A stretch of 64,000 nt of DNA from an uncultured Chloroflexia bacterium (GCA_963809595.1 CAWEKG010000003.1:291749-355748); one strand, 5' to 3'; shown: positions 1 through 57,935, counted from the stretch's first letter. A program made the numbers and translations. Notes: a model not told the origin generated them from the sequence alone.

Positions 1-72
1 TCGGTCGAGATCCGGCCGATCTTGGAGATGCCGGCGGGCGTCGCCGTCGAGGCCATTGGCGCCGCCGGCTGA
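1..72 (+). CDS. 3' end of an upstream gene (partial), ending ...[18 protein letters not shown]
   Basis: The frame is open from the window edge to a TGA at 70-72. This stop overlaps the start of the sigma factor, suggesting co-transcription. The product is unknown; it may be a YCII-like partner of ECF42 sigma factors. Confidence 0.3.
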
Positions 73-1321: not shown

Positions 1322-1420
1322 CGCCCGACGACGACGACGGTCGGCCGTGGGCCGACGACCACGGATGACGCGACCGGCGTCGTGCCGACCCCTTGTCGCC
1401 GACCCGGCTCGGATGCGACG

Positions 1421-2476: not shown

Positions 2477-2582
2477 CGGCAGGTTTGCTATCCTGCGGCC
2501 GGGGGTCGTCCCGAGCCCCCATCCTTCGCCGCGCTGGCAGGCTCGGCCCCCGACCCCTTGACCGACCCGAGGGAGACGCCCG

Positions 2583-4595
2583 ATGTCCTCGCTCCACAGA
2601 ACCCTCGACCGGGCGGCCGTCGCGACGCTGCTGGCGGCCCTTCTTCTCCCGGCGGCCCTCGTCCAGGCCGCGACCGGACCCGGCGCGGTCACCGGCACGC
2701 TGACCTCCGAGGACCCGATCACGCTCAGCTCGAGCGCGGTCGCGGTCGTCGTCCTGGTCGACCAGTCATCGGGGCCGGCCGCCGGCACGATCATCGGTCT
2801 CCAGCGGATCAATGCGCCGGGCAGCGTCCCCATCGCCTTCAGCGTGCCCTACGACCAGGGCGCCATCCAGACGCTGGGCGCCTACGCGATCTTCGCCTCG
2901 ATCCAGGACGGCCCCAAGGTCTGGCAGAACCTGGCCGGCGTCCCGGTCATCACCGGAGGGCCCACGAGCGGGGTAGCCGTCCCGATGCAGGCGGTCCCCT
3001 CCTCGCCACCGGCCCAGGTCAGCGGGACGATCACCCGGACCGACTTGACAGCCCTCAGCCCGAACGCCGTGGCGGTCGCGGCGCTCGTCAAGACCGAAAC
3101 CGGTACCGTCGTCGGCAGCCAGGTCGTCACGGCGCCGGCCGCGAACAGCATCCCCTTCGCGATCGGCTACGACCCGGCCCTCGTCGACCCGGCGGCGGCC
3201 TACGTGGTCCGTGCCGCGATCGTCGACGCGCCTTCGGCGTGGAGCGGCGGCGCGGGGGTCGCGGTCATCACCGGCGGTGCGCCGACGAGCGGAGTCACCC
3301 TGCCGGTGACCGTGTCCACGGTCACCATCCCGACGCCTCAACCGACGGTGACGCCACCACCCACCCCGACGCCTCCACCGACGGCGACGCCGAGGCCCAC
3401 GACGAAGCCGAGCGCCTCGCCCAAACCGACTCCGACCGCTACGCCCCAGCCGACTCCGACCGCGACGCCCACGCCGGCGCCGACCGCCAGTCCGACTCCG
3501 GCGCCGACCGCCACACCGGCGCCGACCCCGAGCCCCAGCCCGACCCCGACCCCGACCGAGGCCCCCAGCGTCTCGGTCGCGCCGAGCGCCACGACGTCCC
3601 CGGCGGCTTCGCCGACCCCGTCATCCGGCACGGTGACCGGCACCCTGGTCTACGCCGAGCCGGCGACGCTCTCGGCCGATGCCCGGGCGGTGGTCCTCCT
3701 CGTCGCCGGGACGACCGCGGCGACCACCGAGACGATCGTCGGCAGCCAGATCATCTCGCCGACCGGTCAGCAGCCGATCGCGTTCAGCGTCGGCTACCAG
3801 ACCGCCGATATCGATCCCGACTTGACCTACACGATCCAGGCCGAGATCCAGGACGGCGATCACGTCTGGGCGACCACGAAGGGCGTGAAGGTCCTGACCC
3901 AGGGGAACCCATCGACCGGGGTCACCGTGAAGCTGGCCCTGCGCGCGGACCTGCTCAAGGGTGAGGTCACCGGGCAGATCACCGGCGTCGGGATCCAGCT
4001 TGAACCGGGCGCCTACTCGGCCGCCGTCCTCATCCGCGTCGACACCGGCGAGAGCCTCGGGGTGGACGCGAACGCGGCGCCGACGACCGTCCCGATCCCG
4101 TTCTCGATCGCCTTCGACCCCGCCACGATCGACCCGAACGCCGACTACGTGGTCCGAGCCGAGATCGTCTCGGGGACGCGGCGCTGGGAGGACACCACCG
4201 GCGTGCCGGTCGTCACGAAGGGGAACCAGCTGACCGGCGTCTCGGTCCCGGTGACCGAGGTCCAGCCCCCCTCGCCGAGCCCGTCCGCGAGCCCTGCCCC
4301 GGCCCCGACCGAGACCGGCGGCGGTACATCGAACTGGCTCATCCTGCTCGTGATCATCCTCGGGATCGCCCTGGCCGCGGCGGTCTACCTGTGGTACCGG
4401 GCGCGGAACCCGGCCGGCGGGCCGCCGGCCGGAGGAGCGGCGGCGACGGGAGCCGCTGCGGCCGGTGCCGCAGCGGCCGATGCGACGGCGCCCGGCGAGA
4501 CGCCGTCGGATGGCCAGGAGGCCGAAGCCGGGGACTCGGAGCCCGAGGTCGACGTCACCCCACCAGACGTCGGGACACCGGGGTCGGCCGGCTGA
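2583..4595 (+). CDS. surface-anchored protein with four tandem YbaY-like ~130-aa domains, a Pro/Thr-rich linker, a C-terminal TM helix and an acidic tail
   Basis: It has a signal peptide ([16 protein letters not shown]). Four repeats of the pattern ...LVD.S...GTIIG.Q.I....PI.FS..YD...I.....Y.I.A.I.DG...W... resemble the E. coli YbaY lipoprotein domain. A ~100-aa PTPTPT linker falls at 3340-3650. A TM segment ([21 protein letters not shown]) is followed by a D/E-rich tail. The RBS GAGGGAGA precedes the ATG. Confidence 0.75.
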
Positions 4596-4727
4596 GACGG
4601 GTCGCCGAGCCCGGCCGCGGGAGTACGATGGAGCCCAGCCGGCGAACTCGGGATCGAGGCCTCGGACCCCGGTCCTGACCTCGGGCCGTGGACCGGACGA
4701 GCGACGCCGGCCGGACGGAGGTCGTCG

Positions 4728-5063
4728 ATGCGCGCTCGAGTGAGTCTCGTCCTCGCGGTCGCGCTGAGCCTGTCGGCCTGCGGTGGGTCGAGTCCGTCGG
4801 TGTCGCCCAGCGCGCCGTCGTCGTCGTCCGCCGCGTCGGGGGCGCCGGCCCAGAGCGCGGGACCGGGCGCGAGCCTCACCGCCTCGGCCGGTCCGTCGAT
4901 CCCGCCGGCGGGCACGATCTACATCATCCGCAAGGGCGACACCCTGTACGCGATCGCCCGGAGGTTCCACCTCACGCTGAAGGCGCTCCGGGCGGCGAAC
5001 CCGTCGGTCACCGACCCAACGAAGATCCGGATCGGGCAGAAGCTGGTCATCCCCGCGCCGTAG
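4728..5063 (+). CDS. LysM domain lipoprotein
   Basis: Signal peptide with lipobox LSAC, an S/A-rich linker, and a C-terminal LysM motif (YIIRKGDTLYAIARRFHLTLKALRAANP...IRIGQKLVIP). Confidence 0.85.
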   Translation: MRARVSLVLAVALSLSACGGSSPSVSPSAPSSSSAASGAPAQSAGPGASLTASAGPSIPPAGTIYIIRKGDTLYAIARRFHLTLKALRAANPSVTDPTKIRIGQKLVIPAP

Positions 5064-5070
5064 GGCACCC

Positions 5071-5535
5071 TCAGCCGACCGATCGGGGGCTCCGCCACGA
5101 CGTGTACCGCGGCGGCCAGGCGTCCGCGTCGGGCCGCTCCCCGAGCACGGCATGGTCGATCGAGAACTCGAACAGCCGATAGCCGTCGTCGACCTCGAAG
5201 GACCAGGCGCCGGCGGCCGCGGCCCGGAAGTTCGGGTCCATCACCTCGCTGGCCCGACCGCGGACGAGGAACTCGCTCGGCTCGGTCGCGTCCTGGTGGG
5301 CGTGCAGGGCATACCGACCGTCGGCAGCGAGATCCCCGACCTTGGCCGAGCCGACGATGAGGAACGACACCAGGCGTCCCCCCACGATGGCCACGTAGAC
5401 GGGGTTGATCCGGGGCGGCGCGTCCGCCCGGACCGTGGCCAGGAGCGCCTCGCCGATCCCGGTCCGCTCGATGAGCCTGCGTCCGGTCGCTGCGATGCCC
5501 GGCGCCGCGGTCGCGAACTCGTCCCAGGTGACCAT
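5071..5535 (-). CDS. pyridoxamine 5'-phosphate oxidase-family (PNPOx-like, possibly F420-dependent) protein
   Basis: PNPOx-fold signature segments (INPVYVAIVGGRLVSF..., GRYALHAH...EFLVRGRA). The internal Met at MVTWDEF is the likely start. Confidence 0.6.
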   Translation of the reverse strand: MVTWDEFATAAPGIAATGRRLIERTGIGEALLATVRADAPPRINPVYVAIVGGRLVSFLIVGSAKVGDLAADGRYALHAHQDATEPSEFLVRGRASEVMDPNFRAAAAGAWSFEVDDGYRLFEFSIDHAVLGERPDADAWPPRYTSWRSPRSVG

Positions 5536-5737
5536 CGGCTCGACCTCCCTTCTCGTTCTCGTCGCGCTCAGCGTATGGCCTGCAGCGTCCGGTCGGCGCG
5601 GGACCTGCCACTGGCCGCCCGGCAATGGGTCAGCCGGCCCTGTTCCCGGTCGATGTCACGTGACAGGGTGACCCCCGAACGGCGTCCACTCACCGCCCGG
5701 CATCGGCCGGCGGCGACCGACCGGCTGATCGGAGGCC

Positions 5738-6595
5738 ATGGTGACCGAGCGGAAACGGATGACGCTCCCCGGGTTGTTCGCCAAGGTGTCGGACGGGACG
5801 CCGATCACCTGGTTGACCTGCTACGACTACCCGACCGCCCATTTCCAGGACCTGGCGGGGATCGACATGATCCTCGTCGGGGACAGCCTTGGCATGACGA
5901 TGCTCGGGTACGACAGCACCCTGCCGGTGACGATGGACGACATGATCCGGCACACCGCCGCGGTCCGGCGCGGGGCGCCCAACGCCTGGCTCGTCGGCGA
6001 CATGCCGTACATGAGCTACCAGCCCAGCGTCGAGACGGCGATCCGCAACGCCGGCCGGTTCATGGCCGAGACGGGCTGCGACTCGGTCAAGCTGGAGGGC
6101 GGCGCGGAGATGGCCGACCGGGTCGCCGGGATCGCCCGGGCGGGGATCCCGGTCATCGGTCACCTGGGGCTCACCCCACAGAGCGTGAGCGCCCTGGGCG
6201 GGTTCCGGCTCCAGGGTAAGGGCGCAGCGCAGGCGAAGAAGATGGTCGACGACGCCAAGGCGCTCGAGGCCGCCGGCGCCTTCTGCATCCTCCTGGAGCT
6301 GGTGCCCGACCGGGTCTGCCGGCTCATCACGGAGCGTGCCGAGCACTGCATCATCATGAGCCTCGGCTCCGGACCGCACGCCCACGGCCAGCTGCTCATC
6401 TACCACGACGCCTTCGGCCTCTACCCCAAGTTCACCCCGCGGATGGCCCGCGTCTTCGCCGACGCCGGGGCGGTGATCCGCGAGGGTCTCGACGGCTACG
6501 TGCGCGAGGTCACCGAGCGGACCTTCCCGGGACCGGAGAACTGGTTCGGGATGAAGGACGAGGAGTACGACGAGCTGGTGAGGTTGCTGGGATGA
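5738..6595 (+). CDS. panB: 3-methyl-2-oxobutanoate hydroxymethyltransferase (ketopantoate hydroxymethyltransferase)
   Basis: Canonical PanB motifs: TCYDYPTA, DSVKLEGG, GIPVIGHLGLTPQS. Length ~285 aa. Confidence 0.9.
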   Translation: MVTERKRMTLPGLFAKVSDGTPITWLTCYDYPTAHFQDLAGIDMILVGDSLGMTMLGYDSTLPVTMDDMIRHTAAVRRGAPNAWLVGDMPYMSYQPSVETAIRNAGRFMAETGCDSVKLEGGAEMADRVAGIARAGIPVIGHLGLTPQSVSALGGFRLQGKGAAQAKKMVDDAKALEAAGAFCILLELVPDRVCRLITERAEHCIIMSLGSGPHAHGQLLIYHDAFGLYPKFTPRMARVFADAGAVIREGLDGYVREVTERTFPGPENWFGMKDEEYDELVRLLG

Positions 6596-7860
6596 CGGCC
6601 CCCGATATCCGCCAGCGACTCGCGATCCCGACGTCCCGCCTCGACGACCTCAACGCGTTCCTGCTCGATCCCGATACCCAGGTCGTCAACGACGTGCTCG
6701 AGGTCGTCGCTCGCTACGGGACACCCGAGGAGATCAACCGCCGGGCGCGTGAGGCAGGTCGGTTGCCCGCCCTGCTCGAGCGGGTCCGGGCGACGAACCC
6801 TGCCCATCTCGCCGACCTCGAGTGGCTGGCCGCCGAGCGCGACCGCGGCGCCTTCGTGTCGGTGGCCGACTACCGCCGCGGGATCCTCGGGGCCGCGGCC
6901 GACAGCGCGACCTTCCGGGACGACCTGGCGGTCACCCTTGAGGTAAGCGCGCTCCAGTACTTCCCGTGGGTCATCGCGGCCGCCCGACGGGCGATCGAGG
7001 CGCGGTCGCTCATGCCCGCCCGCTGGATCCAGGTGCGCCGGATGAAGGAGCAGGAGGCCGACGGCGACCTCCCGGCGATCGCCGCGGCGATGGCGATCAT
7101 CGGCGCGAGCTACGTCGAGACGCTCGACACGAAGGGCACCGACGGCTCGAACATCCATCTCGGCGGCCCGGCCACCATCACCGGCTACTTCGGCGGGATC
7201 GGCGAGCCGAACGATCATCCGCTCCTCTGGCTGGACGAGTTCCTCCACTACTACACCGAGTACGGCGTCCGCCAGGTCCTGAACATCAACCCGGGCACGG
7301 TGCTGGCGGGCTACATCCTCCATCGCCTCGGTGTCGACATCGAGTTCAAGATCTCCGTCTTCATGGGCAACGACAACCCGTTCGCCGGGATGTGGACCCT
7401 GATCGGAGCGAAGCTCTTCGCCCGGGAAGACGGGACCTCGGCCCTGGTCGGCTTCAACTGGGGCAATTCGGTCGACAACCGGACCCTGGAGATCACCTCC
7501 GGGATCCGTAGGGCGCTCGGGTTCGAGGATGTCGTCCGCTTCGAGCACCACATCACCGAGACCTGGAAGAGCATCGTCATCCAGCCATACGACCGGCGGG
7601 CCGAGCTCTGCGAGCTGGCGGTGCGGGTCCCCAACATCTCGGCCAAGCACGAGGGCGGCGACCCCGAGGTCGACGGCCACCGCGACCACCCGTCGGACAT
7701 CCTCGACTACTTCCGGGAGAAGGACGAGGTGGTCGCGAGCGGCGACTGGGACGCCCTCCAGCTCAACTTCATGGACAAGGTCGATGCGGCGAACCACACC
7801 GCCCGTGCCCTGACCGAGCACGGTCTGAGCTTCGTCGCCGCGAGCGCCCTTCATCGCTGA
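6592..7860 (+). CDS. conserved hypothetical protein (422 aa), translationally coupled to panB
   Basis: The ATG overlaps the panB stop (ATGA). It has a complex, non-repetitive, well-balanced composition, unlike the Arg/Pro-rich antisense artefacts. I could not assign a family (no Rossmann, Cys-cluster or P-loop motifs). Confidence 0.6.
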   Translation: MTAPDIRQRLAIPTSRLDDLNAFLLDPDTQVVNDVLEVVARYGTPEEINRRAREAGRLPALLERVRATNPAHLADLEWLAAERDRGAFVSVADYRRGILGAAADSATFRDDLAVTLEVSALQYFPWVIAAARRAIEARSLMPARWIQVRRMKEQEADGDLPAIAAAMAIIGASYVETLDTKGTDGSNIHLGGPATITGYFGGIGEPNDHPLLWLDEFLHYYTEYGVRQVLNINPGTVLAGYILHRLGVDIEFKISVFMGNDNPFAGMWTLIGAKLFAREDGTSALVGFNWGNSVDNRTLEITSGIRRALGFEDVVRFEHHITETWKSIVIQPYDRRAELCELAVRVPNISAKHEGGDPEVDGHRDHPSDILDYFREKDEVVASGDWDALQLNFMDKVDAANHTARALTEHGLSFVAASALHR

Positions 7861-8053
7861 GCCGCCGACCCCCGAGCGCCGACGCTCGTTTGCGGTGCAT
7901 CGGCACACCGTCCGTTCGCGGCCCTGGCGACCGGCCGCCAAGAAACCGGTCGACACACCCGATTCGCGTGCAGTAGATTCGCGCTCTCAGCGTCCCCCCG
8001 TCGGTCGATGCGGCGCGGCGAACGCTGCCCGCGCGCGAAGAGGAGGAGGAAAC

Positions 8054-9833
8054 GTGGTGTCTCGGCGACGTCTCACGCGCTCGATCCTGGTCTCGATGGC
8101 GGTCTCGGCGCTCCTCGGGAGCCAGATCGCCGCCCTGCCCGTCGCGGCCGCCGGTCCGCGGCACCCGAACGTCCACGGTCGCTACATCGTGGTGGCCAAG
8201 AGCCACGCCGACTTCGCCTCGGCGCGGCGGGCCGCCATCCGCGCCGGCGCGACGATCATCGACGAGATGCCCGCCACGGACACGCTGGTCGTGTCCGGCT
8301 CCGTTGCGACCCACGCGACCATCGCGACCGACAGCTCGGTCCAGGCCGTCGCGCTCGACCACCTCGAGCGGGTCGTCCCGCCCGAGTCGGTCGGGGTCAG
8401 CTCGTTCCACGCCCCGAAGGGTCATAGCGGCGCGCCCGGTAACTCCAAGGTCAAGCCCGACCCGGCGTTCTCGCTCAAGGGCCTGATGTGGGACTTCGGC
8501 CGGATCGGCGCCCAGGACGCCTGGAAGTCGACCCTCGGTCGGTCGTCCGTCCTCGTCGGCGTCGCCGACACGGGTCTCGACTTCACCCACTCGGAGCTCG
8601 CCTCGAAGGTCGTCCACGTCGAGGACTTCACGACGACCGAGGATCCGCCGCTGTGCAAGACCTACTTCGACTACAGCGATGCCGACGCGTCCGCTGAGTT
8701 CGGCGGCCCGGCGAACACCGACTGGAACGGCCACGGCTCGTGGATCGGCGGGAACATCGCCGGGGCCCTCGACGGGGTCGGGATCAACGGGATCGCCCCG
8801 AAGGTCGGGCTCGTCGCGCTCAAGATCGCCCAGTGGTGCGGCTACGCCTACGACTCGACGATCCTCGCCTCGTTCCAGTACGCCGCCGACCACGGGATCA
8901 ACGTCGTCTCGATCTCCTTCGGCGGGTACCTCGACCGGTCGGATCCCGACCAGGAGACGATCTACCAGCAGTACGTGAAGACGGTGGCCTACGCCCGCTC
9001 CAAGGGCACGGTGATCGCAGCCGCGGCCGGCAACGAGCACGTCCGGGTCGGGGCCGGTGGCCGCGTCCTGAGCCACGGCATCCTGTGGATCCCCGGTGAT
9101 GTGCCCGATCCGGTCTCGAACCCGATCGACTACTACGGCCTGTACGAGGTCCCCGGCGGCGTCCCGGGTGTCGTCGACGTCTCGGCGACCGGCAATGTGG
9201 TGGTCGGCAAGTCGGCATCGTGCCCGACCGGGACGTGGGAGACGAGCGACGCGACCTGCAAGCCAGCCTCCGATGCGCATCAGCCGTCGGGCGTGGGTCG
9301 CAAGAACCAGCTCACCTACTACAGCAACTACGGGCCCCGGATCGACGTCGCCGCCCCCGGCGGCGCACGCAAGTTCAACCTGCCGAACGCGGATCGGGGC
9401 GGCACCGGTGGCTTCCCCTACACCGATGCCGACGGGACGACCGCCTACGAGGACTTCGGCATCACCTCGAACTGGGCTCTCCAGATCCCGTGCTGGGTGA
9501 ACCTGGGTCCGCAGTTCTACCCGGACGAGTGCTACTCGAACATCCAGGGCACGTCGATGGCCGCGCCTCACGCCTCGGCCGTCCTGGCCCTGATCGCCAG
9601 CGCTCACCCCGCCCTGGCCCACAGCCCGAGTGCGCTCGTCTGGCTGCTCAAGGCGTCGGCCGACGACATCTCGGGCAACACCACCCGGGCGCTCAGCGCG
9701 ACCGACACGTCGCCCGGCGACCGGACCGGGATCGCCTGCCCGACCGGCTACTGCCACCTCGGCGGTGCCGCCGATCTCGGATCACGAAGCCTACGGGGCC
9801 GGGCTGGTCGACGCCGGAGCCGGCGTCCGCTAG
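8054..9833 (+). CDS. secreted subtilisin-like serine peptidase (S8 family), with a frame disruption near the C-terminus
   Basis: Strong RBS AGGAGGAGGA followed by GTG. It has a signal peptide and the catalytic triad motifs VADTGLD (Asp), HGSWIGG (His) and GTSMAAPH (Ser). The conserved S8 C-terminus ...HEAYGAGLVDAGAGVR* is encoded from 9783 to 9833, one frame off from the body; the shift lies near 9765-9782. Confidence 0.8.
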
Positions 9834-9855
9834 CCCTCCCCTCGTCGCACGCAGT

Positions 9856-9885
9856 GAGAGAGCCGGCCGACAGGCCGGCTCTCTC
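9856..9885. terminator. bidirectional intrinsic-terminator-like hairpin between convergent genes
   Basis: Perfect 13-bp stem GAGAGAGCCGGCC / GGCCGGCTCTCTC with the 4-nt loop GACA. It lies between the protease stop (9833) and the corrinoid-protein stop (9925). The U-tract is weak, as is common at high GC. Confidence 0.55.
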
Positions 9886-9924
9886 GTTCGAGACGACCCG
9901 TCCGGATCGCCCGCTCCGTCGCGG

Positions 9925-10572
9925 TCAGGCTCCCAGGAGCGTCCGGGCGATGTTCACCGCCCCGACCGCGTCCTCGCCGAACCCGTCGGCCCCGATCTCG
10001 TCGGCCCAGGCCGCCGTGACCGGGGCGCCGCCCACGATGACCTTCACGTCGTCGCGGAGGCCGGCCTCGGCGAGTGCGTGGATCACGGCCCGCTGGCCGA
10101 CCATCGTGGTCGTCAGCAGGGCGGAGACGCCGACCACGTTGGCGCCGACCTCGCGGACCTTCTCGACGAAGCGCTCGGGTGCGACGTCGACCCCGAGGTC
10201 GTGGACCTCGAAGCCGTTGGCCGTGAGCATCATCCCGACGAGGTTCTTGCCGATCTCGTGGATGTCGCCCTTGGCGGTGCCGATGACGACCCGGCCGACG
10301 ACCTGGCGGCGGGATGCCCGGGCGAGCATCTCCGGCTCGAGGACCCCGATCGCGGTCTGCATCGCTCGGGCGCCGGCCATCATGTCGGGCAGGAACATCA
10401 CCCCGCAGCGGAAGTCCTCGCCGACCTGGTGGATCCCCGGCACGTACCCCTCATCGATGGCCACGAGCGGGTCGACCCCGTCGGCCAGGGCCTCCCGGGC
10501 CAGCTCGGCGGCCTCGTCAGGATCGCCGTCGATGATGCTCTGGCGCATCGCCGCGAACAGGTCTTCGTTCAT
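9925..10572 (-). CDS. cobalamin-binding corrinoid protein (MtbC/MttC/MtgC-like)
   Basis: N-terminal helical B12-binding cap plus a Rossmann B12-binding domain. The DxHxxG motif is present (GDIHEIGKNLVG). Good RBS CAGGAGG before the ATG at 10572. Length ~215 aa. Confidence 0.85.
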   Translation of the reverse strand: MNEDLFAAMRQSIIDGDPDEAAELAREALADGVDPLVAIDEGYVPGIHQVGEDFRCGVMFLPDMMAGARAMQTAIGVLEPEMLARASRRQVVGRVVIGTAKGDIHEIGKNLVGMMLTANGFEVHDLGVDVAPERFVEKVREVGANVVGVSALLTTTMVGQRAVIHALAEAGLRDDVKVIVGGAPVTAAWADEIGADGFGEDAVGAVNIARTLLGA

Positions 10573-10669
10573 GGTCGGAGCCTCCTGGGGGTGGGTTGAC
10601 GAGGGTGTCCCGTCCCGGTGACGTCCGGGTGGGACCTGGGGGGCCGGGCGCTGCGCCCGCACGGATCGT

Positions 10670-12103
10670 TCATCCGAGCTCCGCGTCCGCGGCGGCAAGG
10701 ATGCGCTCCAGGTCCGCCTCGACCGTCTCGGGCAGGGGAGCGACGGGCGGTCCTTCGATGATCTCCCGGACGCGCTCGCGGGCCCGCCCGTACATCGTCG
10801 GCGACCCGATCTCCCGCCAGTGCTCGTAGGCCTGACGCCCGAGGAGACCAGGGGTCAGGAACTCGCGACTGCGGGCGGCGCGGCGGGTGACCGGGCTGGC
10901 CAGGAAGTTCCCGCCGGGACCGACGGCGGCGATCTCCCCGACGAAGTCCGGGTCGGCCGGAGCGCCGATCCCCTCCACCAGCCGCTCCACGAAGCGAGCC
11001 AGCTCGTTGTCGACGAGGATCTGCTCCAGGACCAGTGCCTGGTCGCCCTGGACCTCGCCGAAGCCCACGATGATGTCCGCTCCCGCGGAGGCCGGCGGGA
11101 GCATCGTCACGAGCTTCTCGAGGACGGCCTCCGGACCGGGCGCCGGGGCGTCCGCGGTACAGCCCGCGGCGGTCGTGGGCAGGCCGTAGAAGCGGCCCAT
11201 CGTCACGAGGGCGGCGGACATCAGGCCCATCTCCGGCGTCCCGCCGAGGAAGGCGCCCGTCCGGAAGTCCATCGTGCCGGTCGCGCTGCTGTAGATCATC
11301 GGGCGACCCGGGTGGGCCAGCTGGAAGACGACGATCGCCGATAGCGCCTCGGCGTTGGCCAGGGCGACGTTGGCCAGGAGCCCGGCGGGTCCCGTGGTGC
11401 CGGTGACCGGCATCGGCATGACCATGACCGGCAGGTCCAGGGCCCCAAGGTCGAGGTATCCGTCCAGCATCGGTCCGTCGTGGACGAGCGGGGCGATCGG
11501 GCAGTAGATCAGCGACCAGGGATGGCGCTCCCGGACCACATCCGAACCGCCGGCGACGAGCGTCAGCGCCTCGGCCAGGTACGGCGCCTGCTCACGGGTG
11601 TGGAGCTCGTGCTGACCGTGCTTCGACGAGGCGCGGATCATCGTCACGAACTCGTGGAGCGCGCGGCTCCCGGCGGGGGCATCGGACGCGGTGACCGGCG
11701 GCCAGGCCAGGACCCCCATCTCGGCGGTCTGGAAGACCCGCAGCGCCAGCTCGGTATCCCGCCGGGTGCCGTAGCGCCGCTCGCCGGTCTCGAAGTCGAT
11801 GGTGAAGGCCGCCGTCCCGTCGAGCCCATAGCGGGTCAGCGCCGACGGAAGGGCGAAGTCGTGGACGGGATCGCGGGCGCCCAGCACGATCTCCCGGGGG
11901 GCGGTCGCGAGGGCAGTCTCGACCACGTTCCGCGGCAACCGGGCGATCCCTGTCTCGGCGTCCACCTCGCCGCCGGCCGCCCCAAGGAGGGGCAGCGCCC
12001 GCTCGCCGTGGAACCGGACGCCGGTCTCGGCCAGGATCCGCAGGCTCGCCTCGTGGACCTGCTCGCGGTCGGCCTCGCCCAGGAAGGTCGCCGTATAGCG
12101 CAT
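10670..12103 (-). CDS. MttB-superfamily (trimethylamine methyltransferase family, COG5598) methyltransferase, non-pyrrolysine paralog 1
   Basis: 477 aa, similar throughout to MttB/MtgB-type TIM-barrel methyltransferases. No in-frame amber codon. Directly upstream of the corrinoid-protein gene. Confidence 0.8.
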   Translation of the reverse strand: MRYTATFLGEADREQVHEASLRILAETGVRFHGERALPLLGAAGGEVDAETGIARLPRNVVETALATAPREIVLGARDPVHDFALPSALTRYGLDGTAAFTIDFETGERRYGTRRDTELALRVFQTAEMGVLAWPPVTASDAPAGSRALHEFVTMIRASSKHGQHELHTREQAPYLAEALTLVAGGSDVVRERHPWSLIYCPIAPLVHDGPMLDGYLDLGALDLPVMVMPMPVTGTTGPAGLLANVALANAEALSAIVVFQLAHPGRPMIYSSATGTMDFRTGAFLGGTPEMGLMSAALVTMGRFYGLPTTAAGCTADAPAPGPEAVLEKLVTMLPPASAGADIIVGFGEVQGDQALVLEQILVDNELARFVERLVEGIGAPADPDFVGEIAAVGPGGNFLASPVTRRAARSREFLTPGLLGRQAYEHWREIGSPTMYGRARERVREIIEGPPVAPLPETVEADLERILAAADAELG

Positions 12104-12106
12104 CCC

Positions 12107-13561
12107 TCAGCCCGCCATCCCGGCGCCGGGCACGGCCTCGGCCGCCCGGTCGACCAGGCCCGCCAGCTCCCGCGCGATCGCCTCGTCCAGGGGCAGGGGA
12201 CGGTGGGCCGCCAGCGTCTCCGTCACCAGCCGACCGGCGTCGTCCACGACGTCCGGCCGTCCGCCGGCCGACCAGTGCTCCCAGGTGTCGTGGACCCCCA
12301 GGCGGTCCGGGTACCACTCGCCCTGATGGGTGGCCCGACGAGTCGCCGGCCGGGCCAGGAAGTCGCCCCCGGGGCCGACCTCGTCGAGCGCCGCCTCGAC
12401 GGCCTCTTCGAGCGCGGCGTCGATCCCGCGCCGGACGCGGAGGCAGCGGCGGAACCCCTCGATGTCGAGGACCAGCTGCTCGAGCGAGAGGACCGTGGAC
12501 CCGCCGAGGAGGCCCGGACCGACCAGCAGGTCCGGCCAGGCCAGGACGGGGAGGAGCCAGTTGACCGCCCGCTCGGCGGCGGCCTGGGCGCCCGGCAGAT
12601 GGGCGTCGGTCCCACCGACGGACGCCTCGACCGGCAGGCCGTAGAAGCGGGCCATCTCCGTCGTCGCCGCGCCGAGGAGCGCGTGTTCCACCGCGCCGCC
12701 GGCCCAGCGCCCGGTGCGCGGCTCCATCACGGCGAGGGCCGGCGCGAAGATGAAGGGCGTCCCGGGTGCCGCCGCCTGGACCAGGCACAGGGTGGCCAGG
12801 GTCTCGGCCGTTCCCAGGACGGTCGTGGACAGCAGCCCGACCGGCGCCGTGAGACCCATCATCGGCATCGGCATGGCCGCCACGGGCAGTCCCCACTCGG
12901 CGGTCGCCAGCCAGGCGTCGGTGTAGGGGCCCTCCAGCGCGAGGGGGCTCAGCGGGCAGAACAGGAACGAGAAGGGCCGCCGCCGCCGGACCTCGTCGCG
13001 CCCGCCGAAGAGGACGCCCAGGACCTCCAGGAGCCAGCCCGCTTCGGCCGGGTCGGCGGCCGAGTCCTGGACGTGGCGCGAGAACCGGGTGAACGCCCCG
13101 GCCCAGCCCCGGACGACGGCGCCGGGCGCCGGATCGGGGCCCTCGAAGTCGACCATCCGCCAGTAGACGCCGACCTCCTCGGAGGCGTCGAGCAGGTCGG
13201 TGGACCGCTCCCAGTCCGCCTGCTCGGCCGGTCGGCGCTCACCCGTCGCGAGGTCGAGGACCTGGAGCGCCTCGCCGTCGGCGACCAGGCTGCAACCGGC
13301 CCCGTCGAGGGCCAGCTCCCAGCCTGGTCGTCGTCCGCCCAGGCTGAACGTGCGTGGCGCGGCGGCCAGCGCCGCCTCGACGACCGCTCGCGGAAGACGG
13401 ACCCGACGCTCGCCCTCGTCGACCGTCGCCCCGGACGCCGCGAGGACCTGCCGGGCCCGATCGGACTCCACCCGGAGCCCGGTCCGGGCCAGCACCGCCA
13501 GGGCCCGCTCGTGGACCTCGGCCCGTCGGGCCGCCGGGAGGACCTCGACGGTGGTCGTCAC
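12107..13561 (-). CDS. MttB-superfamily methyltransferase, non-pyrrolysine paralog 2
   Basis: 484 aa and clearly paralogous to the neighbours, with shared blocks such as ...GPGG.FLA...TR... near the C-terminus and GLP..AA.GGTDA. Its stop lies 3 nt from the next gene's start. Confidence 0.8.
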   Translation of the reverse strand: MTTTVEVLPAARRAEVHERALAVLARTGLRVESDRARQVLAASGATVDEGERRVRLPRAVVEAALAAAPRTFSLGGRRPGWELALDGAGCSLVADGEALQVLDLATGERRPAEQADWERSTDLLDASEEVGVYWRMVDFEGPDPAPGAVVRGWAGAFTRFSRHVQDSAADPAEAGWLLEVLGVLFGGRDEVRRRRPFSFLFCPLSPLALEGPYTDAWLATAEWGLPVAAMPMPMMGLTAPVGLLSTTVLGTAETLATLCLVQAAAPGTPFIFAPALAVMEPRTGRWAGGAVEHALLGAATTEMARFYGLPVEASVGGTDAHLPGAQAAAERAVNWLLPVLAWPDLLVGPGLLGGSTVLSLEQLVLDIEGFRRCLRVRRGIDAALEEAVEAALDEVGPGGDFLARPATRRATHQGEWYPDRLGVHDTWEHWSAGGRPDVVDDAGRLVTETLAAHRPLPLDEAIARELAGLVDRAAEAVPGAGMAG

Positions 13562-13592
13562 CGGTCGTTCCGCAGCACCCGGGTCGGACCGC

Positions 13593-15095
13593 TCACTCGG
13601 CCTCCCCCAGGTCGCGGTCGGCTGCGCCGAGGATCCGGGTCAGCTCGTCGGCCTGCGCCGGGTCGAGCGGCGTCGGATGGTGGTGCTCGCGGATCCAGGC
13701 GACCCGCTCCCGGGCGACCTCCACCGGGTCGCGGAAGCGGCCGCCCTCGACCAGCTCGTGGGTCAGGCTCCGCTTGAGGGCGGTCCGCATGTGCGTCCGG
13801 GTGTGCCGCTCGGCCAGGAAATGGCCGCCCGGCCCGACGTCGGCGATGACATCGAGGGCGAGGGTCTCGTCGCTGACGTCCTCCGCCAGCAGCGCGTGGC
13901 GTGCCCGCTGGTAGAGGTCGTCGTCGAGGATGATCGCCTCCGGATAGAGGAGCGTGTACGTCCGGTCCAGACCGAGTCCGGTGACCAGCTCCGGGCCGGC
14001 GAGCGCCCCGAGAAGCGGGTCGAGGGCGACCTCCGCGGCGGCCTGCCAGGTGCCGGCCGACGGCGAGTCGGTGCCGAAGCAGGCGGCCATCGACGGGAGC
14101 CCCCAGCGGTGGGCCATCTCGACCGGGGCGTAGCGGGCCCGGCCGTCGAGCGAATAGCCGACGTAGTTGCCGGTCCGCGGGTCCGCCCAGGCCTTCATGA
14201 TCGAGTGGAAGACCGGCGCACCCGGGTAGGCCAGCTGGAGCAGGACGATCCCCGAGATGACCTCGGCGTCGCCGACGACCAGGGCGCCGGCCGAGGTCGC
14301 CGGTGCCGTCGTCCCCAGCGTCGGCATCGACAGGAACCCGACCGGGATCCCGGCCTCGGCGAAGACGAGCGACGCCTCGAGGCCGGCCTCGTCCTGGGCC
14401 AGCGGGGCGATCGAGCAGATGAGGTCGGACAGGACGGGCCGCTCCCGAAGCGACTCGCGGCTGCCGGCGAGGACGGTCGCCATCTCGATCGCGCGACGGG
14501 CCGGCTCGGCGCCCATGACCATCGCCTGGAAGTGCTTGACCGTGTTGTTGTAGGCGGCGTCGATCTCGTGGAGCTGGGACGTCCGACCGTGGTCCTGGGC
14601 GCTCACGGTCGGCCACATGAAGCCGATCGACGGGAGGGCGTCGGCGATCCGGGCGATCTCGGCCACGTCGCTCTTGCGCGAGGGTCGCTCCTGGCGGGTG
14701 TCGAAGTCGATCGTGGCCACGCCGCAGCCGTCGGTGGTGAAGTAGCTGACGCCCTCCTCGAGCCGGAGATCGAAGCCGGGATCCCGGGCCGCCATCGTGA
14801 AGCTGCGGGGCGCCGTCGACAGGGCCCGCCGGACGAGGTCCCGCGGGAAGCGGACGATCCGGGTCGCCCGGTCGACGGTCGCGCCGTGGCCGTCGAGGAT
14901 CTCGAGGGCCGTCTCGGACGGGAACCGCACCCCGACGTCCTCGAGGACCCGGAGGGTGGCGTCCTGGAGCCGATCGAGCTGCTCGTCGTCGAGGAAGCGC
15001 ACCCGGTGCGCCGAGCGCAGCGGCTCGAGCGGCGGGGTGGGGCTGGGCGTCCCAGCGATGAGGGCGTCGTCGACGCCCGGCTGACCGACCATCAC
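13593..15095 (-). CDS. MttB-superfamily methyltransferase, non-pyrrolysine paralog 3
   Basis: 500 aa and the best MttB-like of the three (...YFTTDGCGVATIDFDT..., ...GPGGHFLAERHTRTHMR...). First gene of the likely mttB3-mttB2-mttB1-corrinoid operon. Confidence 0.8.
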   Translation of the reverse strand: MMVGQPGVDDALIAGTPSPTPPLEPLRSAHRVRFLDDEQLDRLQDATLRVLEDVGVRFPSETALEILDGHGATVDRATRIVRFPRDLVRRALSTAPRSFTMAARDPGFDLRLEEGVSYFTTDGCGVATIDFDTRQERPSRKSDVAEIARIADALPSIGFMWPTVSAQDHGRTSQLHEIDAAYNNTVKHFQAMVMGAEPARRAIEMATVLAGSRESLRERPVLSDLICSIAPLAQDEAGLEASLVFAEAGIPVGFLSMPTLGTTAPATSAGALVVGDAEVISGIVLLQLAYPGAPVFHSIMKAWADPRTGNYVGYSLDGRARYAPVEMAHRWGLPSMAACFGTDSPSAGTWQAAAEVALDPLLGALAGPELVTGLGLDRTYTLLYPEAIILDDDLYQRARHALLAEDVSDETLALDVIADVGPGGHFLAERHTRTHMRTALKRSLTHELVEGGRFRDPVEVARERVAWIREHHHPTPLDPAQADELTRILGAADRDLGEAE

Positions 15096-15250
15096 CGTCC
15101 TCCAGCTCGGCTTCCCACCTCGTGGGAGCCCGCCGGGCGACCGGGGTCACGCGGCGTCGGATGCCTTGGGACGCCGGGCAACGGTGCCACACGGTCGCTC
15201 GGCTGGGGCGCACTGTCCCGCCGACCGAGCCGCCGAGTCAGGCCGGGAAC

Positions 15251-15309
15251 GACAGACGATCCCGCGGCGGCCGGTCGAGGAGGTAACCGGTCAAGCGGGA
15301 TCGTCTGGC
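15251..15309. promoter_or_regulatory. long imperfect hairpin between araB and the mttB cluster
   Basis: GACAGACGATCCCGC ... GCGGGATCGTCTGGC, a 15-bp inverted repeat with one mismatch around a 29-nt loop that can itself pair (CCGGT/ACCGG). It sits just downstream of the araB stop and upstream of mttB3. Candidate terminator or regulatory structure. Confidence 0.35.
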
Positions 15310-15327
15310 GAGGCAGGCACAGTATGG

Positions 15328-17109
15328 TCAGGCGGTGGCGCTCTCGACTCCGCGCGAGGTCGGGACGGAGGCGGCTGGGTCGGGGACGACGGGGGTCATA
15401 TCCGCGGCGGCCGGTCCCGACCGTGCCCGTTCGAGTTCGTCGCGGCGGATGGCCTTGAGGGTCTTCATCACCGGATCGGCGCCGCGCCCGAACAGGTCGT
15501 GGAGGCGGACGTACTCGGCATACAAGCGGTCGTAGACGGCGACATTCGCATCGATCGGCTCGAAGACCTCGTCGCGGAGGTGGGCCATCCGGCCTGCGGC
15601 GGCGGCGATATCGGGGTACCCCCCGGCTGCCTCCCCGGCTGCGACCGCCGCGAACATCGCCGAGCCGAGGGCCGGGGTCTGGGCCGATGCGGCCTGCCGC
15701 CAGGTTCGTCCGGTGACGTCGGCGAAGATCTGCATCAGGAGGCGGTTGCGCTCCGGGAGCCCGCCGCAGGCGACCACTCGGTCGATCGCGACACCGCCGG
15801 CCTCGAACGCGTCGATGATCACCCGCGTCCCGAAGGCCGTCGCCTCGAGCAGCGCTCGGTAGATCTCGGCGGGCTGGGTGGCGAGGGTCATCCCGATGAG
15901 GAGTCCGGAAAGATCGGCATCGACGAGGATCGAGCGGTTGCCGTTCCACCAGTCGAGGGCGAGAAGTCCGGACTCGCCGGGTCGTAGCCCGCCGGCGTCG
16001 GCCTCGAGGACCTCATGGACGCTCGACCCACTCGAGCGGGCTCGCTCGTGGTAGATGGCCGGCACACCATGCGTGACGAACCAGCCGAACAGGTCGCCGA
16101 CCGACGCCTGACCGGCTTCGAAGCCGAAGCGTCCCGGGACGACCCCGTCCCGGACGACCCCGCACATCCCCGGGATCGCCGGCGCCGAGTCGGCCAGGAC
16201 GATGTGGCAGATGCTCGTTCCCATGATCGCCACGAGCGTGCCCGGTCCGGTGACCGACGCTGCCGGCGCGGAGACGTGGGCATCCACGTTGGCGACGGCC
16301 ACCGCGATCCCCGGTCGGAGTCCGGTCCACCCGGCTGCCCGCTCGCTCAGCCCACCGGCGGGCGTGCCCAGACGGGCGATGGACCGCGACATCTTGTCGT
16401 CGACCACTCGGGCGAAGCGCGGGTCCAGCGCGCCGAAGAAGCGAACGTCGGGAAAGCCGTCCTCGGCCGACCAGAGCGCCTTGTAGCCGGCCGTGCAGCT
16501 GCTCCTCGTCTCGACCCCGGTCAGCTGCCAGACGATCCAGTCGGCGGCCTCGATCAGGCGATCGGCGGCGTCGTAGACGAGGGGGGCCTCGCGCAGGATC
16601 TGGAGCGCCTTGGGAAAGAACCACTCGGATGAGATCTTGCCGCCGTACCGGTCGAGCCACGGCTCGCCGTGCGCGGCAGCGACCCGGTTGATCTCGTCCG
16701 CTTCGGGTTGCGCTGCGTGGTGCTTCCAGAGCTTGACCCAGGCGTGGGGATCGCGCCGGTAGGCGTCGAGCTGGCACAGCGGCGTACCGTCGGCCATCGT
16801 CGGCAGCATCGTGCACGAGGTGAAGTCGATGCCGATGCCGATGACCTGCCCGGGGTCGATCCTGGCGTCGGCGACCGCACACGGGACGGCCCGGCGGAGC
16901 GCCTCGAGGTAGTCCGCCGGATCCTGGAGCGCCCAGTCCGGGCCGAGCGCGACATCCTCGTCGGGCGCCGGCAGCCGTTCGTCGATGACCCCGTTGGCGT
17001 ACTGGTGGACCGCGACACCGAGCTCCCGGCCGTCCGCGACGTCGACGACGACCGCTCGGGCGGATGCCGTTCCGAAGTCCACGCCGATGGCGTACCGTCC
17101 CGCGCCCAT
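15328..17109 (-). CDS. araB: L-ribulokinase
   Basis: FGGY kinase with AraB-specific N-terminus (YAIGVDFGTASARAVVVD, YANGVIDE, WKHHAAQPEADEIN). Length 593 aa. Confidence 0.85.
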   Translation of the reverse strand: MGAGRYAIGVDFGTASARAVVVDVADGRELGVAVHQYANGVIDERLPAPDEDVALGPDWALQDPADYLEALRRAVPCAVADARIDPGQVIGIGIDFTSCTMLPTMADGTPLCQLDAYRRDPHAWVKLWKHHAAQPEADEINRVAAAHGEPWLDRYGGKISSEWFFPKALQILREAPLVYDAADRLIEAADWIVWQLTGVETRSSCTAGYKALWSAEDGFPDVRFFGALDPRFARVVDDKMSRSIARLGTPAGGLSERAAGWTGLRPGIAVAVANVDAHVSAPAASVTGPGTLVAIMGTSICHIVLADSAPAIPGMCGVVRDGVVPGRFGFEAGQASVGDLFGWFVTHGVPAIYHERARSSGSSVHEVLEADAGGLRPGESGLLALDWWNGNRSILVDADLSGLLIGMTLATQPAEIYRALLEATAFGTRVIIDAFEAGGVAIDRVVACGGLPERNRLLMQIFADVTGRTWRQAASAQTPALGSAMFAAVAAGEAAGGYPDIAAAAGRMAHLRDEVFEPIDANVAVYDRLYAEYVRLHDLFGRGADPVMKTLKAIRRDELERARSGPAAADMTPVVPDPAASVPTSRGVESATA

Positions 17110-40054: not shown

Positions 40055-40108
40055 TAGATTGCCAGTCTAACCAACATATCAACAGTATAGCGGAAGTGAG
40101 GGAGCCCG

Positions 40109-41469: not shown

Positions 41470-41556
41470 TCACCGGCGTAAGCCCATTCCCCGGCGGGCC
41501 AGCATCGGACAGAAGTCAGGAAGCCGGCCTCGCGGCCGGCTTCCGGTTGGGATTAC

Positions 41557-57924: not shown

Positions 57925-57935
57925 CGCCGCGACAC

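What the first reader, a model, noticed from the sequence alone, without database searches (positions are those of the whole stretch)
9925..15095. Three tandem non-pyrrolysine MttB-family methyltransferases with a cognate corrinoid protein in an aerobic-type high-GC genome
mttB3-mttB2-mttB1 are 477-500 aa each and mutually about 30-40% alike by eye. They are followed by a B12-binding corrinoid protein (DxHxxG) in one operon with 3-30 nt spacers. None carries an in-frame UAG, so these are the non-Pyl quaternary-amine type (glycine betaine, proline betaine, carnitine or butyrobetaine-like MtgB/MtpB/MtcB/MtyB relatives). Three diverged paralogs suggest three substrates feeding one corrinoid carrier. 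No methylcorrinoid:THF methyltransferase (MtgA/MtqA) or RamA-type reductive activase is encoded in the window, and the flanking genes (S8 protease, ara operon) are unrelated. The downstream partners of this module are therefore unknown.
Basis: partly seen in the sequence, partly recalled or inferred. Interest (0 to 1): 0.65.

Follow-up and report, generated by a model that had tools for sequence, protein, structure and literature searches.

The report
Tandem MttB-family methyltransferases with corrinoid protein
A four-gene operon in a high-GC soil Chloroflexota genome encodes three diverged vitamin-B12-dependent N-methyl demethylase homologues and their B12 carrier protein; it is a trimmed copy of a cluster common in that lineage and belongs to a known enzyme kind, but its substrates are unknown and probably not betaines.

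Summary
Four minus-strand genes at 9925-15095 encode three MttB-superfamily proteins (PF06253, E 1e-61 to 1e-72; 34-38% identical to each other) and a cognate corrinoid protein (DxHxxG at residues 103-108). None has an in-frame stop. No methylcorrinoid:THF methyltransferase, RamA or DUF1638 gene lies in the 64 kb window.

The interpretation needs correcting in three ways.

- **Taxon.** All 71 related loci are Chloroflexota MAGs (Limnocylindria-like, 70-75% GC). The closest shares 13 kb of synteny.
- **Cluster.** The three genes belong to three of four conserved orthogroups (A, C, D). Close relatives carry a PotABCD-type polyamine transporter, then A'-A-B-C-D and the corrinoid protein. The window holds a trimmed version that is still under purifying selection (dN/dS 0.11-0.18).
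- **Substrate.** None of 155 orthogroup members keeps Arg312 or His348 of MtgB. Arg312 is reported conserved in every characterised non-Pyl member, all of which act on acidic quaternary amines. Pyl334 and Tyr364 of MttB are also absent. An invariant Asp-Gly motif is present instead.

Betaine substrates are therefore unlikely, and cationic N-methyl amines without an acid group are my best guess. In three relatives a pterin-binding methyltransferase gene lies beside or near the D gene, which supports THF as the methyl acceptor.

Verdict: a new member of a known kind, of moderate interest.

The parts
13593..15095 (-). mttB3, an MttB-superfamily methyltransferase of orthogroup A (499/500 aa; probable start ATG 15092 after GGAGGA)
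   Evidence: PF06253 E 3.1e-63. TIGR02369 346.7 bits, below the 525 cut-off. 67% identical to gene A of L002/L018 and 90% to the L003 orthologue. dN/dS 0.13. Pocket signature D-G-C, M336, G341 at the Pyl column, Y380.
12107..13561 (-). mttB2, an MttB-superfamily methyltransferase of orthogroup C (484 aa)
   Evidence: PF06253 E 1e-61. 60% identical to gene C of L002/L018 and 87% to the L003 orthologue. dN/dS 0.18. Pocket signature D-G-E, E312, G317 at the Pyl column, S355.
10670..12103 (-). mttB1, an MttB-superfamily methyltransferase of orthogroup D (477 aa)
   Evidence: PF06253 E 3.6e-72. PDB 7xcl MttB 3e-57 and 9yce MtgB 2e-52. AlphaFold pLDDT 88; TM 0.88 to 7XCL and 0.87 to 9YCE. 91% identical to the L003 orthologue; dN/dS 0.18. 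Pocket signature D-G-T, T311, T316 at the Pyl column, D354.
9925..10572 (-). cognate corrinoid (B12-binding) protein, 215 aa, with cap and Rossmann domains
   Evidence: PF02607 plus PF02310. TIGR02370 222.8 bits, above the 215.3 cut-off. Best specific model is MtgC NF047995, 226.5 bits, below its 310 cut-off. DIHEIG at 103-108, SAL at 150. AGGAGG 8 nt before the ATG. dN/dS 0.11 against L003.
9856..9885 (.). perfect 13-bp GC-rich hairpin, 40 nt past the corrinoid stop codon, between the convergent genes; probable operon end or bidirectional terminator
   Evidence: Read from the sequence. RNA fold of 9840-9930: -54.6 kcal/mol, z -3.97, and 0 of 200 shuffles fold as well. It has no T tract, so the consensus terminator scan did not report it.
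15096..15327 (-). 232-nt intergenic region between the araB-like stop and mttB3; a presumed promoter/leader, function not shown
   Evidence: The proximal ~140 nt are conserved with L003, where the upstream genes differ: the alignment runs to window 15235. No sigma-70 consensus, terminator or riboswitch was detected.

Best explanation
**What it is.** The four genes are the substrate-activating half of a corrinoid-dependent methyl-transfer system.

**How it most likely works**
1. Each of the three MttB-like TIM-barrel enzymes binds a different N-methylated compound. Following the literature they would be called 'MtxB', meaning substrate unassigned.
2. Each lets the Co(I) form of the single co-encoded corrinoid protein (His-on, DxHxxG) take one methyl group.
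3. The methyl-Co(III) protein is then demethylated by a pterin-binding methyltransferase encoded elsewhere in the genome, giving methyl-tetrahydrofolate.
4. The methyl group is then oxidised or assimilated.
5. Oxidised cofactor is re-reduced by an unlinked activase of the RamA or DUF1638 type.

**Substrates.** Most likely cationic methylated amines without a carboxylate or phosphate group, not betaines. The candidates (methylated di- or polyamines, choline-like or tetramethylammonium-like compounds) are my own guesses.

**Status of each step**
- Shown by homology: the identity of the three MT1 enzymes and of the corrinoid protein, the operon structure, and purifying selection.
- Inferred from relatives: THF as acceptor, and uptake by a PotABCD-type transporter that this genome has lost at this site.
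- Inferred from pocket residues: the substrate class.
For: **Family and fold:**

**Operon:** 31-, 3- and 97-nt spacers, Shine-Dalgarno sequences and a terminal hairpin.

**Functional constraint:** dN/dS 0.11-0.18 for all four genes against the closest MAG, L003.

**Separate specificities**
- Three of four orthogroups are each conserved in 38-54 loci, with invariant group-specific pocket residues.
- These are DGC...Y in A, DGE in C, and DGT...D in D.

**Not betaines**
- R312 and H348 of MtgB are absent in 155 of 155 members.
- R312 is reported conserved in all characterised non-Pyl enzymes and to bind the acid group (PMC13080624; PMC12155760).
- An Asp at MttB position 109 is conserved in 154 of 155 members, and C and D carry further acidic pocket residues.

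**Transporter**
- The linked transporter in relatives is PotABCD-like. The binding protein matches PotD 1pot at 1.3e-46, and the ATPase scores above the TIGR01187 potA cut-off.
- 24 of 47 loci with full flanks carry it.

**THF acceptor:** Pterin_bind genes overlap the D-type stop codon in L033 and L044. In L018 a Pterin_bind gene and DUF1638 lie beside the cluster, upstream of the transporter genes.
Against: - No biochemical or expression data exist for any member of these orthogroups.
- The substrate class rests on alignment columns, not on a ligand-bound structure. Alignment around Y97/G110 shifts by one column between runs.
- The window and L003 lack the transporter, so the PotD clue is indirect here. 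Some relatives carry an Opp/Dpp-type transporter instead.
- MT2 and the activase are not in the window, so a complete pathway in this genome is unproven.
- Only 14 of 71 related loci have the corrinoid gene nearby.
Confidence: 0.6

Rival explanations
1. One reading: the three enzymes are MtgB/MtpB/MtcB/MtyB-like demethylases of acidic quaternary amines (glycine betaine, proline betaine, carnitine, gamma-butyrobetaine), feeding one corrinoid protein.
For: - They are non-Pyl MttB-superfamily members with a cognate corrinoid protein.
- The corrinoid protein's best specific model is MtgC.
- All characterised non-Pyl members use such substrates.
- mttB3 keeps an aromatic residue (Y380) at the F356 column.
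Against: - R312 and H348 are absent in all three genes and in 155 of 155 orthologues. Y97 is replaced by C, E or T.
- The MtgC model score (226.5) is below its 310 cut-off.
- Relatives carry PotABCD-type or Opp-type transporters, and no OpuA/ProX or BCCT-type transporter turned up among the neighbour genes scanned.
- The S. meliloti homologue 4YYC, from an aerobe, does keep Y97, R312 and H348, so these residues are not simply lost outside anaerobes.
Confidence: 0.15
2. They demethylate simple methylamines (trimethylamine, dimethylamine or monomethylamine) without pyrrolysine. An acidic pocket residue holds the protonated amine instead of a Pyl adduct.
For: - mttB1 scores slightly higher against Pyl-MttB than against MtgB.
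- MttB's Gly110, Met249 and the H348-column deletion are shared by all three.
- mttB1 keeps the G-T pair of MttB's Gly110-Thr111.
- The Asp109 position is conserved in 154 of 155 members.
Against: - Pyl334 and Tyr364, both tied to TMA activation (PMC9842639), are absent from all members.
- TIGR02369 scores of 299-348 bits are far below the 525 cut-off.
- No Pyl-independent MttB acting on TMA is described in the papers read.
- A PotD-type binding protein is an odd choice for small volatile amines. This last point is my inference.
Confidence: 0.1
3. The module is a decaying remnant. After losing the transporter and two paralogues (A' and B), the remaining genes no longer do useful work.
For: - The closest full clusters have five MttB genes plus PotABCD. 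The window and L003 keep only A-C-D-Cor.
- No MT2 or activase is in the window.
Against: - All four ORFs are intact and full length against the profile.
- dN/dS is 0.11-0.18 with dS 0.27-0.41 since the split from L003, which carries the same trimmed layout.
- Shine-Dalgarno sequences and the terminal hairpin are intact.
Confidence: 0.05
4. The corrinoid protein is shared with methionine synthesis, or the system runs in reverse, as proposed for MtgC/MtgD of Ruegeria pomeroyi. The module would then serve biosynthesis (methyl-THF to corrinoid to acceptor) as well as, or instead of, catabolism.
For: There is a precedent in aerobic bacteria, where MtgC and MtgD are needed both for methionine synthesis and for glycine betaine demethylation (PMC12478193). 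MT2 is unlinked here, as in R. pomeroyi.
Against: - The corrinoid gene sits inside the MttB operon and co-varies with it in 14 loci.
- It scores best with the methylotrophic corrinoid-protein family (TIGR02370/MtgC-like), not with MetH.
- No homocysteine-binding module appears in the window or in the related loci examined.
Confidence: 0.07

Closest known systems
Desulfitobacterium hafniense MtgB/MtgC/MtgA, the glycine betaine:corrinoid:THF methyltransferase system (PDB 2QNE, 9YCE)
   Same: Same superfamily and fold (E 2e-52; TM 0.87). Non-Pyl. The MT1 gene is next to a cognate corrinoid protein whose best specific model is MtgC. A THF-type MT2 is linked in some relatives.
   Different: About 28-30% identity. 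All four glycine-betaine-binding residues (Y97, R312, H348, F356) are replaced or deleted. No MT2 in the window. Three paralogues share one corrinoid protein.
Methanosarcina barkeri MttB/MttC, the pyrrolysine-dependent trimethylamine methyltransferase (PDB 7XCL, 7XCN)
   Same: Best sequence and fold match for mttB1 (E 3e-57; TM 0.88). Shares Gly110, Met249 and the deletion at the MtgB-H348 column. The corrinoid protein has the same Asp-His ligand motif.
   Different: No UAG/Pyl334: G, G and T occupy that column. No Tyr364. Scores are below the TIGR02369 cut-off. Bacterial, and the acceptor is probably THF rather than coenzyme M.
Eubacterium limosum MtpB, MtcB, MtyB and MthB, with MtqC/MthC, MtqA/MthA and RamQ
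   Same: Many diverged MttB paralogues with different substrates feed corrinoid protein(s), and the methyl group then passes to THF (PMC12155760). This is the same logic as 'several MT1, one carrier'.
   Different: Those enzymes act on acidic quaternary amines and reportedly keep R312; the window's proteins do not. I could not obtain the E. limosum sequences, so no direct phylogeny was made.
Ruegeria pomeroyi MtgB/MtgC/MtgD, with RamA and DUF1638 (aerobic marine bacteria; PMC12478193)
   Same: Shows that MttB-family plus corrinoid systems work in aerobic bacteria with unlinked partner genes. DUF1638 and a pterin-binding protein also flank the cluster in relative L018.
   Different: A different phylum. 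The S. meliloti homologue 4YYC, the only homologue from an aerobic Alphaproteobacterium I could compare, keeps Y97/R312/H348. No dual role in methionine synthesis is indicated here.

Membership tests
MttB superfamily (Pfam PF06253 / COG5598) | Full-length match to the family HMM above the gathering score | tested here: met
   214, 208.9 and 243.4 bits against a cut-off of 25, covering profile positions ~26-499 of 500.
MttB superfamily (Pfam PF06253 / COG5598) | TIM-barrel fold with a C-terminal extension, like solved members | tested here: met
   mttB1 model: pLDDT 88, pTM 0.88. TM 0.88 to 7XCL, 0.87 to 9YCE/2QNE, 0.85 to 4YYC. Only mttB1 was modelled.
Pyrrolysine-containing trimethylamine methyltransferase MttB (TIGR02369 equivalog) | In-frame UAG encoding Pyl334 | tested here: not met
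   The ORFs are uninterrupted. The Pyl334 column holds G341, G317 and T316.
Pyrrolysine-containing trimethylamine methyltransferase MttB (TIGR02369 equivalog) | Score at or above the curated equivalog cut-off (525 bits) | tested here: not met
   346.7, 298.9 and 348.5 bits.
Pyrrolysine-containing trimethylamine methyltransferase MttB (TIGR02369 equivalog) | Tyr364 and Gly110, both 100% conserved in Pyl-MttB (PMC9842639) | tested here: inconclusive
   Gly110 is kept in all three genes and in 155 of 155 orthologues. Tyr364 is replaced by T, V and V. So one of the two residues is met.
MtgB glycine betaine methyltransferase | Glycine-betaine-binding residues Y97, R312, H348 and F356 (PMC13080624) | tested here: not met
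   mttB3: C, M, deletion, Y. mttB2: E, E, deletion, S. mttB1: T, T, deletion, D. No Arg at the R312 column in any of 155 orthogroup members.
Characterised acidic-quaternary-amine MttB homologues (MtpB, MtcB, MtyB, MthB) | Conserved Arg equivalent to MtgB R312, which binds the acid group | tested here: not met
   Same columns as above. Conservation of the Arg among the characterised enzymes is taken from PMC13080624.
Characterised acidic-quaternary-amine MttB homologues (MtpB, MtcB, MtyB, MthB) | Phylogenetic placement inside a clade that holds a characterised enzyme | not tested
In an NJ tree rooted on 4YYC, orthogroups A-D each formed a clade containing neither MtgB nor MttB; their relationship to one another and to the references was not resolved or support-tested.
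Methyltransferase cognate corrinoid protein (TIGR02370) | Score above cut-off, B12-binding cap plus Rossmann domains, and the DxHxxG lower-ligand motif | tested here: met
   222.8 bits against 215.3. PF02607 plus PF02310. DIHEIG at 103-108, SAL at 150.
MtgC glycine-betaine-specific corrinoid protein (NF047995) | Score at or above the curated cut-off (310 bits) | tested here: not met
   226.5 bits.
Complete three-component corrinoid methyltransferase system (MT1 + corrinoid protein + MT2 + activase) | A methylcorrinoid:THF (pterin-binding) methyltransferase and a RamA-type or DUF1638 reactivation protein encoded with the system | tested here: not met
   Neither is in the window (Pfam; tblastn). 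Linked Pterin_bind genes occur in relatives L018, L033 and L044, and DUF1638 in L018. Whether this genome encodes them elsewhere cannot be tested with these tools.

The most novel reading that the evidence does not exclude
The four Chloroflexota orthogroups (A, B, C, D; three of them in this window) would form a branch of the MttB superfamily that uses neither pyrrolysine nor the acid-binding arginine. This branch would demethylate a substrate class not yet known for the family: cationic N-methyl amines without an acidic group, for example methylated di- or polyamines taken up by the linked PotABCD-type transporter. It would do so in abundant high-GC soil bacteria. Among the 131 full-length 50%-identity representatives from the 150 library proteins closest to mttB1, only 4 have Arg at that column. 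Such chemistry could therefore be widespread.
Probability: 0.3. Interest if true: 0.65.

Novelty: new member of a known kind. Interest (0 to 1): 0.4.

Why it matters
Only six substrates are known for the very large MttB superfamily, and every non-Pyl one is an acidic quaternary amine (PMC12155760). These genes lack the residue that binds the acid group, and in sister genomes they sit beside polyamine-type transporters. They therefore point to a set of soil Chloroflexota enzymes that may demethylate other N-methyl compounds.

If confirmed, three things would follow:
- the chemistry of B12-dependent demethylation would be wider than known;
- the routine annotation of such genes as 'trimethylamine' or 'glycine betaine' methyltransferases in metagenome C1 and nitrogen budgets would need correcting;
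- a cobalamin-demanding pathway would be added to a dominant soil lineage.

As it stands, this is an ordinary uncharacterised member of a well-known system type.

Tried and rejected
- **Exact look-up of mttB1 in public assemblies.** Not on record, so the source genome is not in that collection.
- **Cobalamin or other riboswitch.** None at the gathering threshold in the window, and none at E <= 1 in 9700-15500.
- **Consensus promoters and terminators in 9700-15500.** None found. The hairpin at 9856-9885 was found by eye and by folding.
- **Pyl machinery.** The only tRNA is tRNA-Thr.
- **RamA candidates by size.**
  - 15328-17109 (593 aa) is an FGGY kinase.
  - 49769-51619 (616 aa) has no family hit.
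- **MtaA/MtbA-type MT2.** The URO-D gene at 60096-61187 scores 397 bits as a decarboxylase and sits among HemB, HemD and other haem genes, so I read it as HemE.
- **Ancestral synteny of the ara genes with the cluster.** An Aldolase_II gene recurs near the cluster in relatives. It is only 38% identical to the window's araD-like gene, so I rejected the idea.
- **Phylogeny against MtpB, MtcB, MtyB and MthB.** Their sequences could not be obtained, and the supplement is not held.
- **Literature.**
  - A search for MttB together with polyamine found nothing relevant.
  - One paper notes that mttB is commonly annotated in Anaerolineae and Limnocylindria MAGs.
- **Actinobacterial origin.** Rejected, because all 71 related loci are Chloroflexota.

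Full report
**1. What is in the sequence**

Four genes lie head to tail on the minus strand:
- mttB3, 13593-15095
- mttB2, 12107-13561
- mttB1, 10670-12103
- a corrinoid protein, 9925-10572

The three large proteins match Pfam PF06253 (MTTB) over nearly the whole profile, with E 3e-63, 1e-61 and 4e-72. The small protein has the B12-binding cap and Rossmann domains. It passes the curated cut-off of TIGR02370, 'methyltransferase cognate corrinoid protein'. It carries DIHEIG (DxHxxG) at residues 103-108.

The paralogues are 34-38% identical to one another. The spacers are 31, 3 and 97 nt. GGAGGA and AGGAGG precede the likely starts of mttB3 and the corrinoid gene. A perfect 13-bp GC hairpin at 9856-9885 follows the last gene (z -3.97). 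No ORF contains a stop codon, so there is no amber codon.

An AlphaFold model of mttB1 (pLDDT 88) superposes on MttB 7XCL with TM 0.88 and on MtgB 9YCE with TM 0.87. The only correction is the 97-nt spacer.

**2. Surroundings in the window**

- Upstream on the same strand, after a 232-nt gap, lies an arabinose-type block: an FGGY kinase, a Zn-ADH, a class II aldolase and AraA. A sugar ABC transporter and LacI follow.
- Downstream lies a convergent S8 protease.

I called genes by third-position GC content and scanned every ORF I called across the 64 kb with Pfam. None has a Pterin_bind, RamA-type or DUF1638 domain. tblastn with pterin-binding and DUF1638 proteins from related loci found nothing, the best pterin-binding hit having E = 1.4.

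The URO-D gene at 60096-61187 sits among HemB, HemD and other haem genes, so it is HemE. No riboswitch was found.

**3. Where it comes from**

The exact protein is not on record. Homologues at 60-91% identity are abundant in metagenomes. All 71 loci recovered from species-representative genomes are Chloroflexota MAGs. They are labelled 'uncultured Chloroflexia' (isolate names prefixed MFD), Candidatus Limnocylindrales, Anaerolineales or RBG_16_72_14. The closer relatives sampled have 70-75% GC.

The closest locus, L003 (CAWIYR010000005.1), aligns with window 1-7871 at 83% and with 9922-15235 at 88%. The window is therefore a high-GC Chloroflexota genome, not an actinobacterium. Relative to L003, the S8 protease gene is an insertion and the upstream flank differs.

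**4. The cluster in its relatives**

I used the well-ordered locus L002/L018 as the key. Its order is:
- a pterin-binding methyltransferase and DUF1638
- PotA-like ATPase, binding protein and two permeases
- four MttB genes, A-B-C-D
- a corrinoid protein

Against this key, mttB3 is A (67% identity), mttB2 is C (60%) and mttB1 is D (69%). B is absent.

In a neighbour-joining tree of 156 MttB proteins from the loci, these form four clades: A (43 members), B (19), C (39) and D (54). Neither MtgB nor MttB falls inside any of them.

Most of the closest relatives (L004, L005, L006, L009; L010, L024 and L026 as far as their flanks or assemblies allow) carry PotABCD-like genes, then A'-A-B-C-D, then the corrinoid protein (absent within the flank in L026). 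That makes five MttB genes. Only the window and L003 have the short A-C-D-Cor form. Most of the nearest relatives have the long form, so loss in this lineage is the simpler reading.

Counts across the loci:

| Feature | Loci with it |
|---|---|
| at least three MttB genes | 33 of 47 with full flanks |
| a PotABCD-like component | 24 of 47 with full flanks |
| a corrinoid gene nearby | 14 of 71 |

The transporter is polyamine-type:
- the binding protein matches PotD (1pot, 1.3e-46) and PotF;
- the ATPase passes the potA subfamily cut-off;
- the permeases match PotB and PotC best.

A smaller group of loci carries an Opp/Dpp-type transporter instead.

In L033 and L044 the D-type gene's stop overlaps the start of a 283-287 aa Pterin_bind gene. 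More distant loci place the C-D pair beside SelD, SelA, a molybdopterin formate-dehydrogenase-like set and a ThiO/DAO-type flavoprotein. That is compatible with oxidation of C1 units, but it is only an association.

**5. Are the window's genes functional?**

Against L003, dN/dS is 0.13 for mttB3, 0.18 for mttB2, 0.18 for mttB1 and 0.11 for the corrinoid gene. dS ranges from 0.27 to 0.41. The trimmed module has therefore stayed under purifying selection.

**6. Substrate class**

The glycine-betaine-bound MtgB structure and mutagenesis define Y97, R312, H348 and F356. R312 is reported conserved in every characterised non-Pyl member: MtgB, MtpB, MtcB, MtyB and MthB. All of their substrates are acidic quaternary amines (PMC13080624; PMC12155760).

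I rebuilt the MtgB, MttB and S. meliloti 4YYC sequences from the printed PDB alignments and aligned them with the paralogues. The four MtgB positions read as follows:

| Gene | Y97 | R312 | H348 | F356 |
|---|---|---|---|---|
| mttB3 | C | M | deleted | Y |
| mttB2 | E | E | deleted | S |
| mttB1 | T | T | deleted | D |

4YYC keeps Y, R and H at the first three positions. None of the 155 orthogroup members has Arg at the R312 column, and all lack the His.

The proteins do share MttB's Gly110, Met249 and the one-residue deletion. They lack Pyl334 and Tyr364, which serve TMA activation (PMC9842639). An Asp precedes Gly110 in 154 of 155 members. Each group also has its own fixed pocket residues: DGC...Y in A, DGE in C, and DGT...D in D.

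Put together, there is no acid-binding Arg, there are conserved acidic residues in the pocket, and a polyamine-type transporter lies next door in relatives. I therefore consider betaines unlikely. I favour cationic N-methyl amines without an acid group. This is an inference from alignment columns, not a demonstration.

In a search of 1.84 billion cluster representatives, mttB1 has 977 relatives at E <= 1e-30. Among the 131 full-length proteins in the best 150, only 4 have Arg at that column and 95 have the MttB-like Gly. The named ones are all generic 'trimethylamine methyltransferase family protein' entries. The window's genes thus belong to a large, uncharacterised part of the superfamily. 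The literature would label them 'MtxB' (PMC10653893).

**7. Mechanism proposed**

1. Three substrate-specific MT1 enzymes methylate one Co(I) corrinoid protein.
2. An unlinked pterin-binding MT2 passes the methyl group to THF. This is supported by linkage in L018, L033 and L044.
3. An unlinked RamA-type or DUF1638 activity restores Co(I).

R. pomeroyi offers a precedent for unlinked partner genes and for such a system in an aerobe (PMC12478193). Steps 2 and 3 are inferred for this genome.

**8. Comparison and verdict**

The module is a clear member of the MttB superfamily plus cognate corrinoid protein kind. It fails the tests for Pyl-MttB, for MtgB and, on the R312 criterion, for the characterised betaine and phosphocholine enzymes.

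mttB genes are already noted as frequent in Anaerolineae and Limnocylindria MAGs (PMC11264602). MttB-type systems in aerobes have been demonstrated. A specialist would therefore not be surprised by the finding itself.

The added value is threefold: the orthogroup structure, the missing arginine, and the polyamine-transporter linkage. Together they make a new substrate class testable. I rate the finding a new member of a known kind, with interest 0.4.

Noticed in passing
window 7895-9832 (+): The S8 protease gene appears frameshifted near 9775-9780. The long ORF runs on as nonsense to 10621, antisense to the corrinoid gene. Another reading frame gives a typical subtilase end, '...ISDHEAYGAGLVDAGAGVR*', stopping at about 9830. 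This could be a long-read sequencing error or a pseudogene. The whole gene is absent from the closest relative L003, where 68 bp replace window 7871-9922.
   Followed up: partly
window 6592-7860 (+): A 422-aa ORF convergent with the operon has no Pfam or NCBIfam match. It is 92% identical in L003 at the same position. It is a conserved gene of unknown function next to the cluster.
   Followed up: partly
window 49769-51619 (+): A 616-aa ORF with coding-like GC3 has no Pfam or NCBIfam hit.
   Followed up: no
window 54199-63999 (-): An iron and haem block: FeoB; an ORF combining an amine-oxidase (HemY-like) region with a FeoA domain, which overlaps FeoB's 5' end and may be two genes or a miscall; a radical SAM protein; HemE; HemB; HemD.
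   Followed up: no
L019, L021, L058, L073 and about 20 other loci: In more distant Chloroflexota the MttB C-D pair sits beside SelD, SelA, a molybdopterin/NuoF-type formate-dehydrogenase-like set and a ThiO/DAO-type FAD oxidase. This may be a C1-oxidation and amine-oxidation neighbourhood.
   Followed up: partly
L033 7459-8310; L044 11434-12297: A 283-287 aa Pterin_bind (methylcorrinoid:THF methyltransferase-like) gene starts at the stop codon of the D-type MttB gene. The two are 87% identical to each other and 32-33% identical to the L018 pterin-binding protein.
   Followed up: yes
L043, L045, L054, L040, L053, L033: Some four-MttB loci carry an Opp/Dpp-type ABC transporter (SBP_bac_5 plus OppB/C-like permeases) instead of the PotABCD-type one.
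   Followed up: no
window 38000-50000: GC content drops to 0.66-0.67, against 0.71-0.76 elsewhere. The stretch holds the only tRNA (Thr-CGT, 41557-41631) and several short ORFs without family hits. I did not examine it for mobile-element features.
   Followed up: no
L006, L009, L024, L071: Several related long-read MAG loci show split or over-long matches for the D and corrinoid genes, which suggests assembly frameshifts. Apparent pseudogenes in this lineage should be read with care.
   Followed up: no
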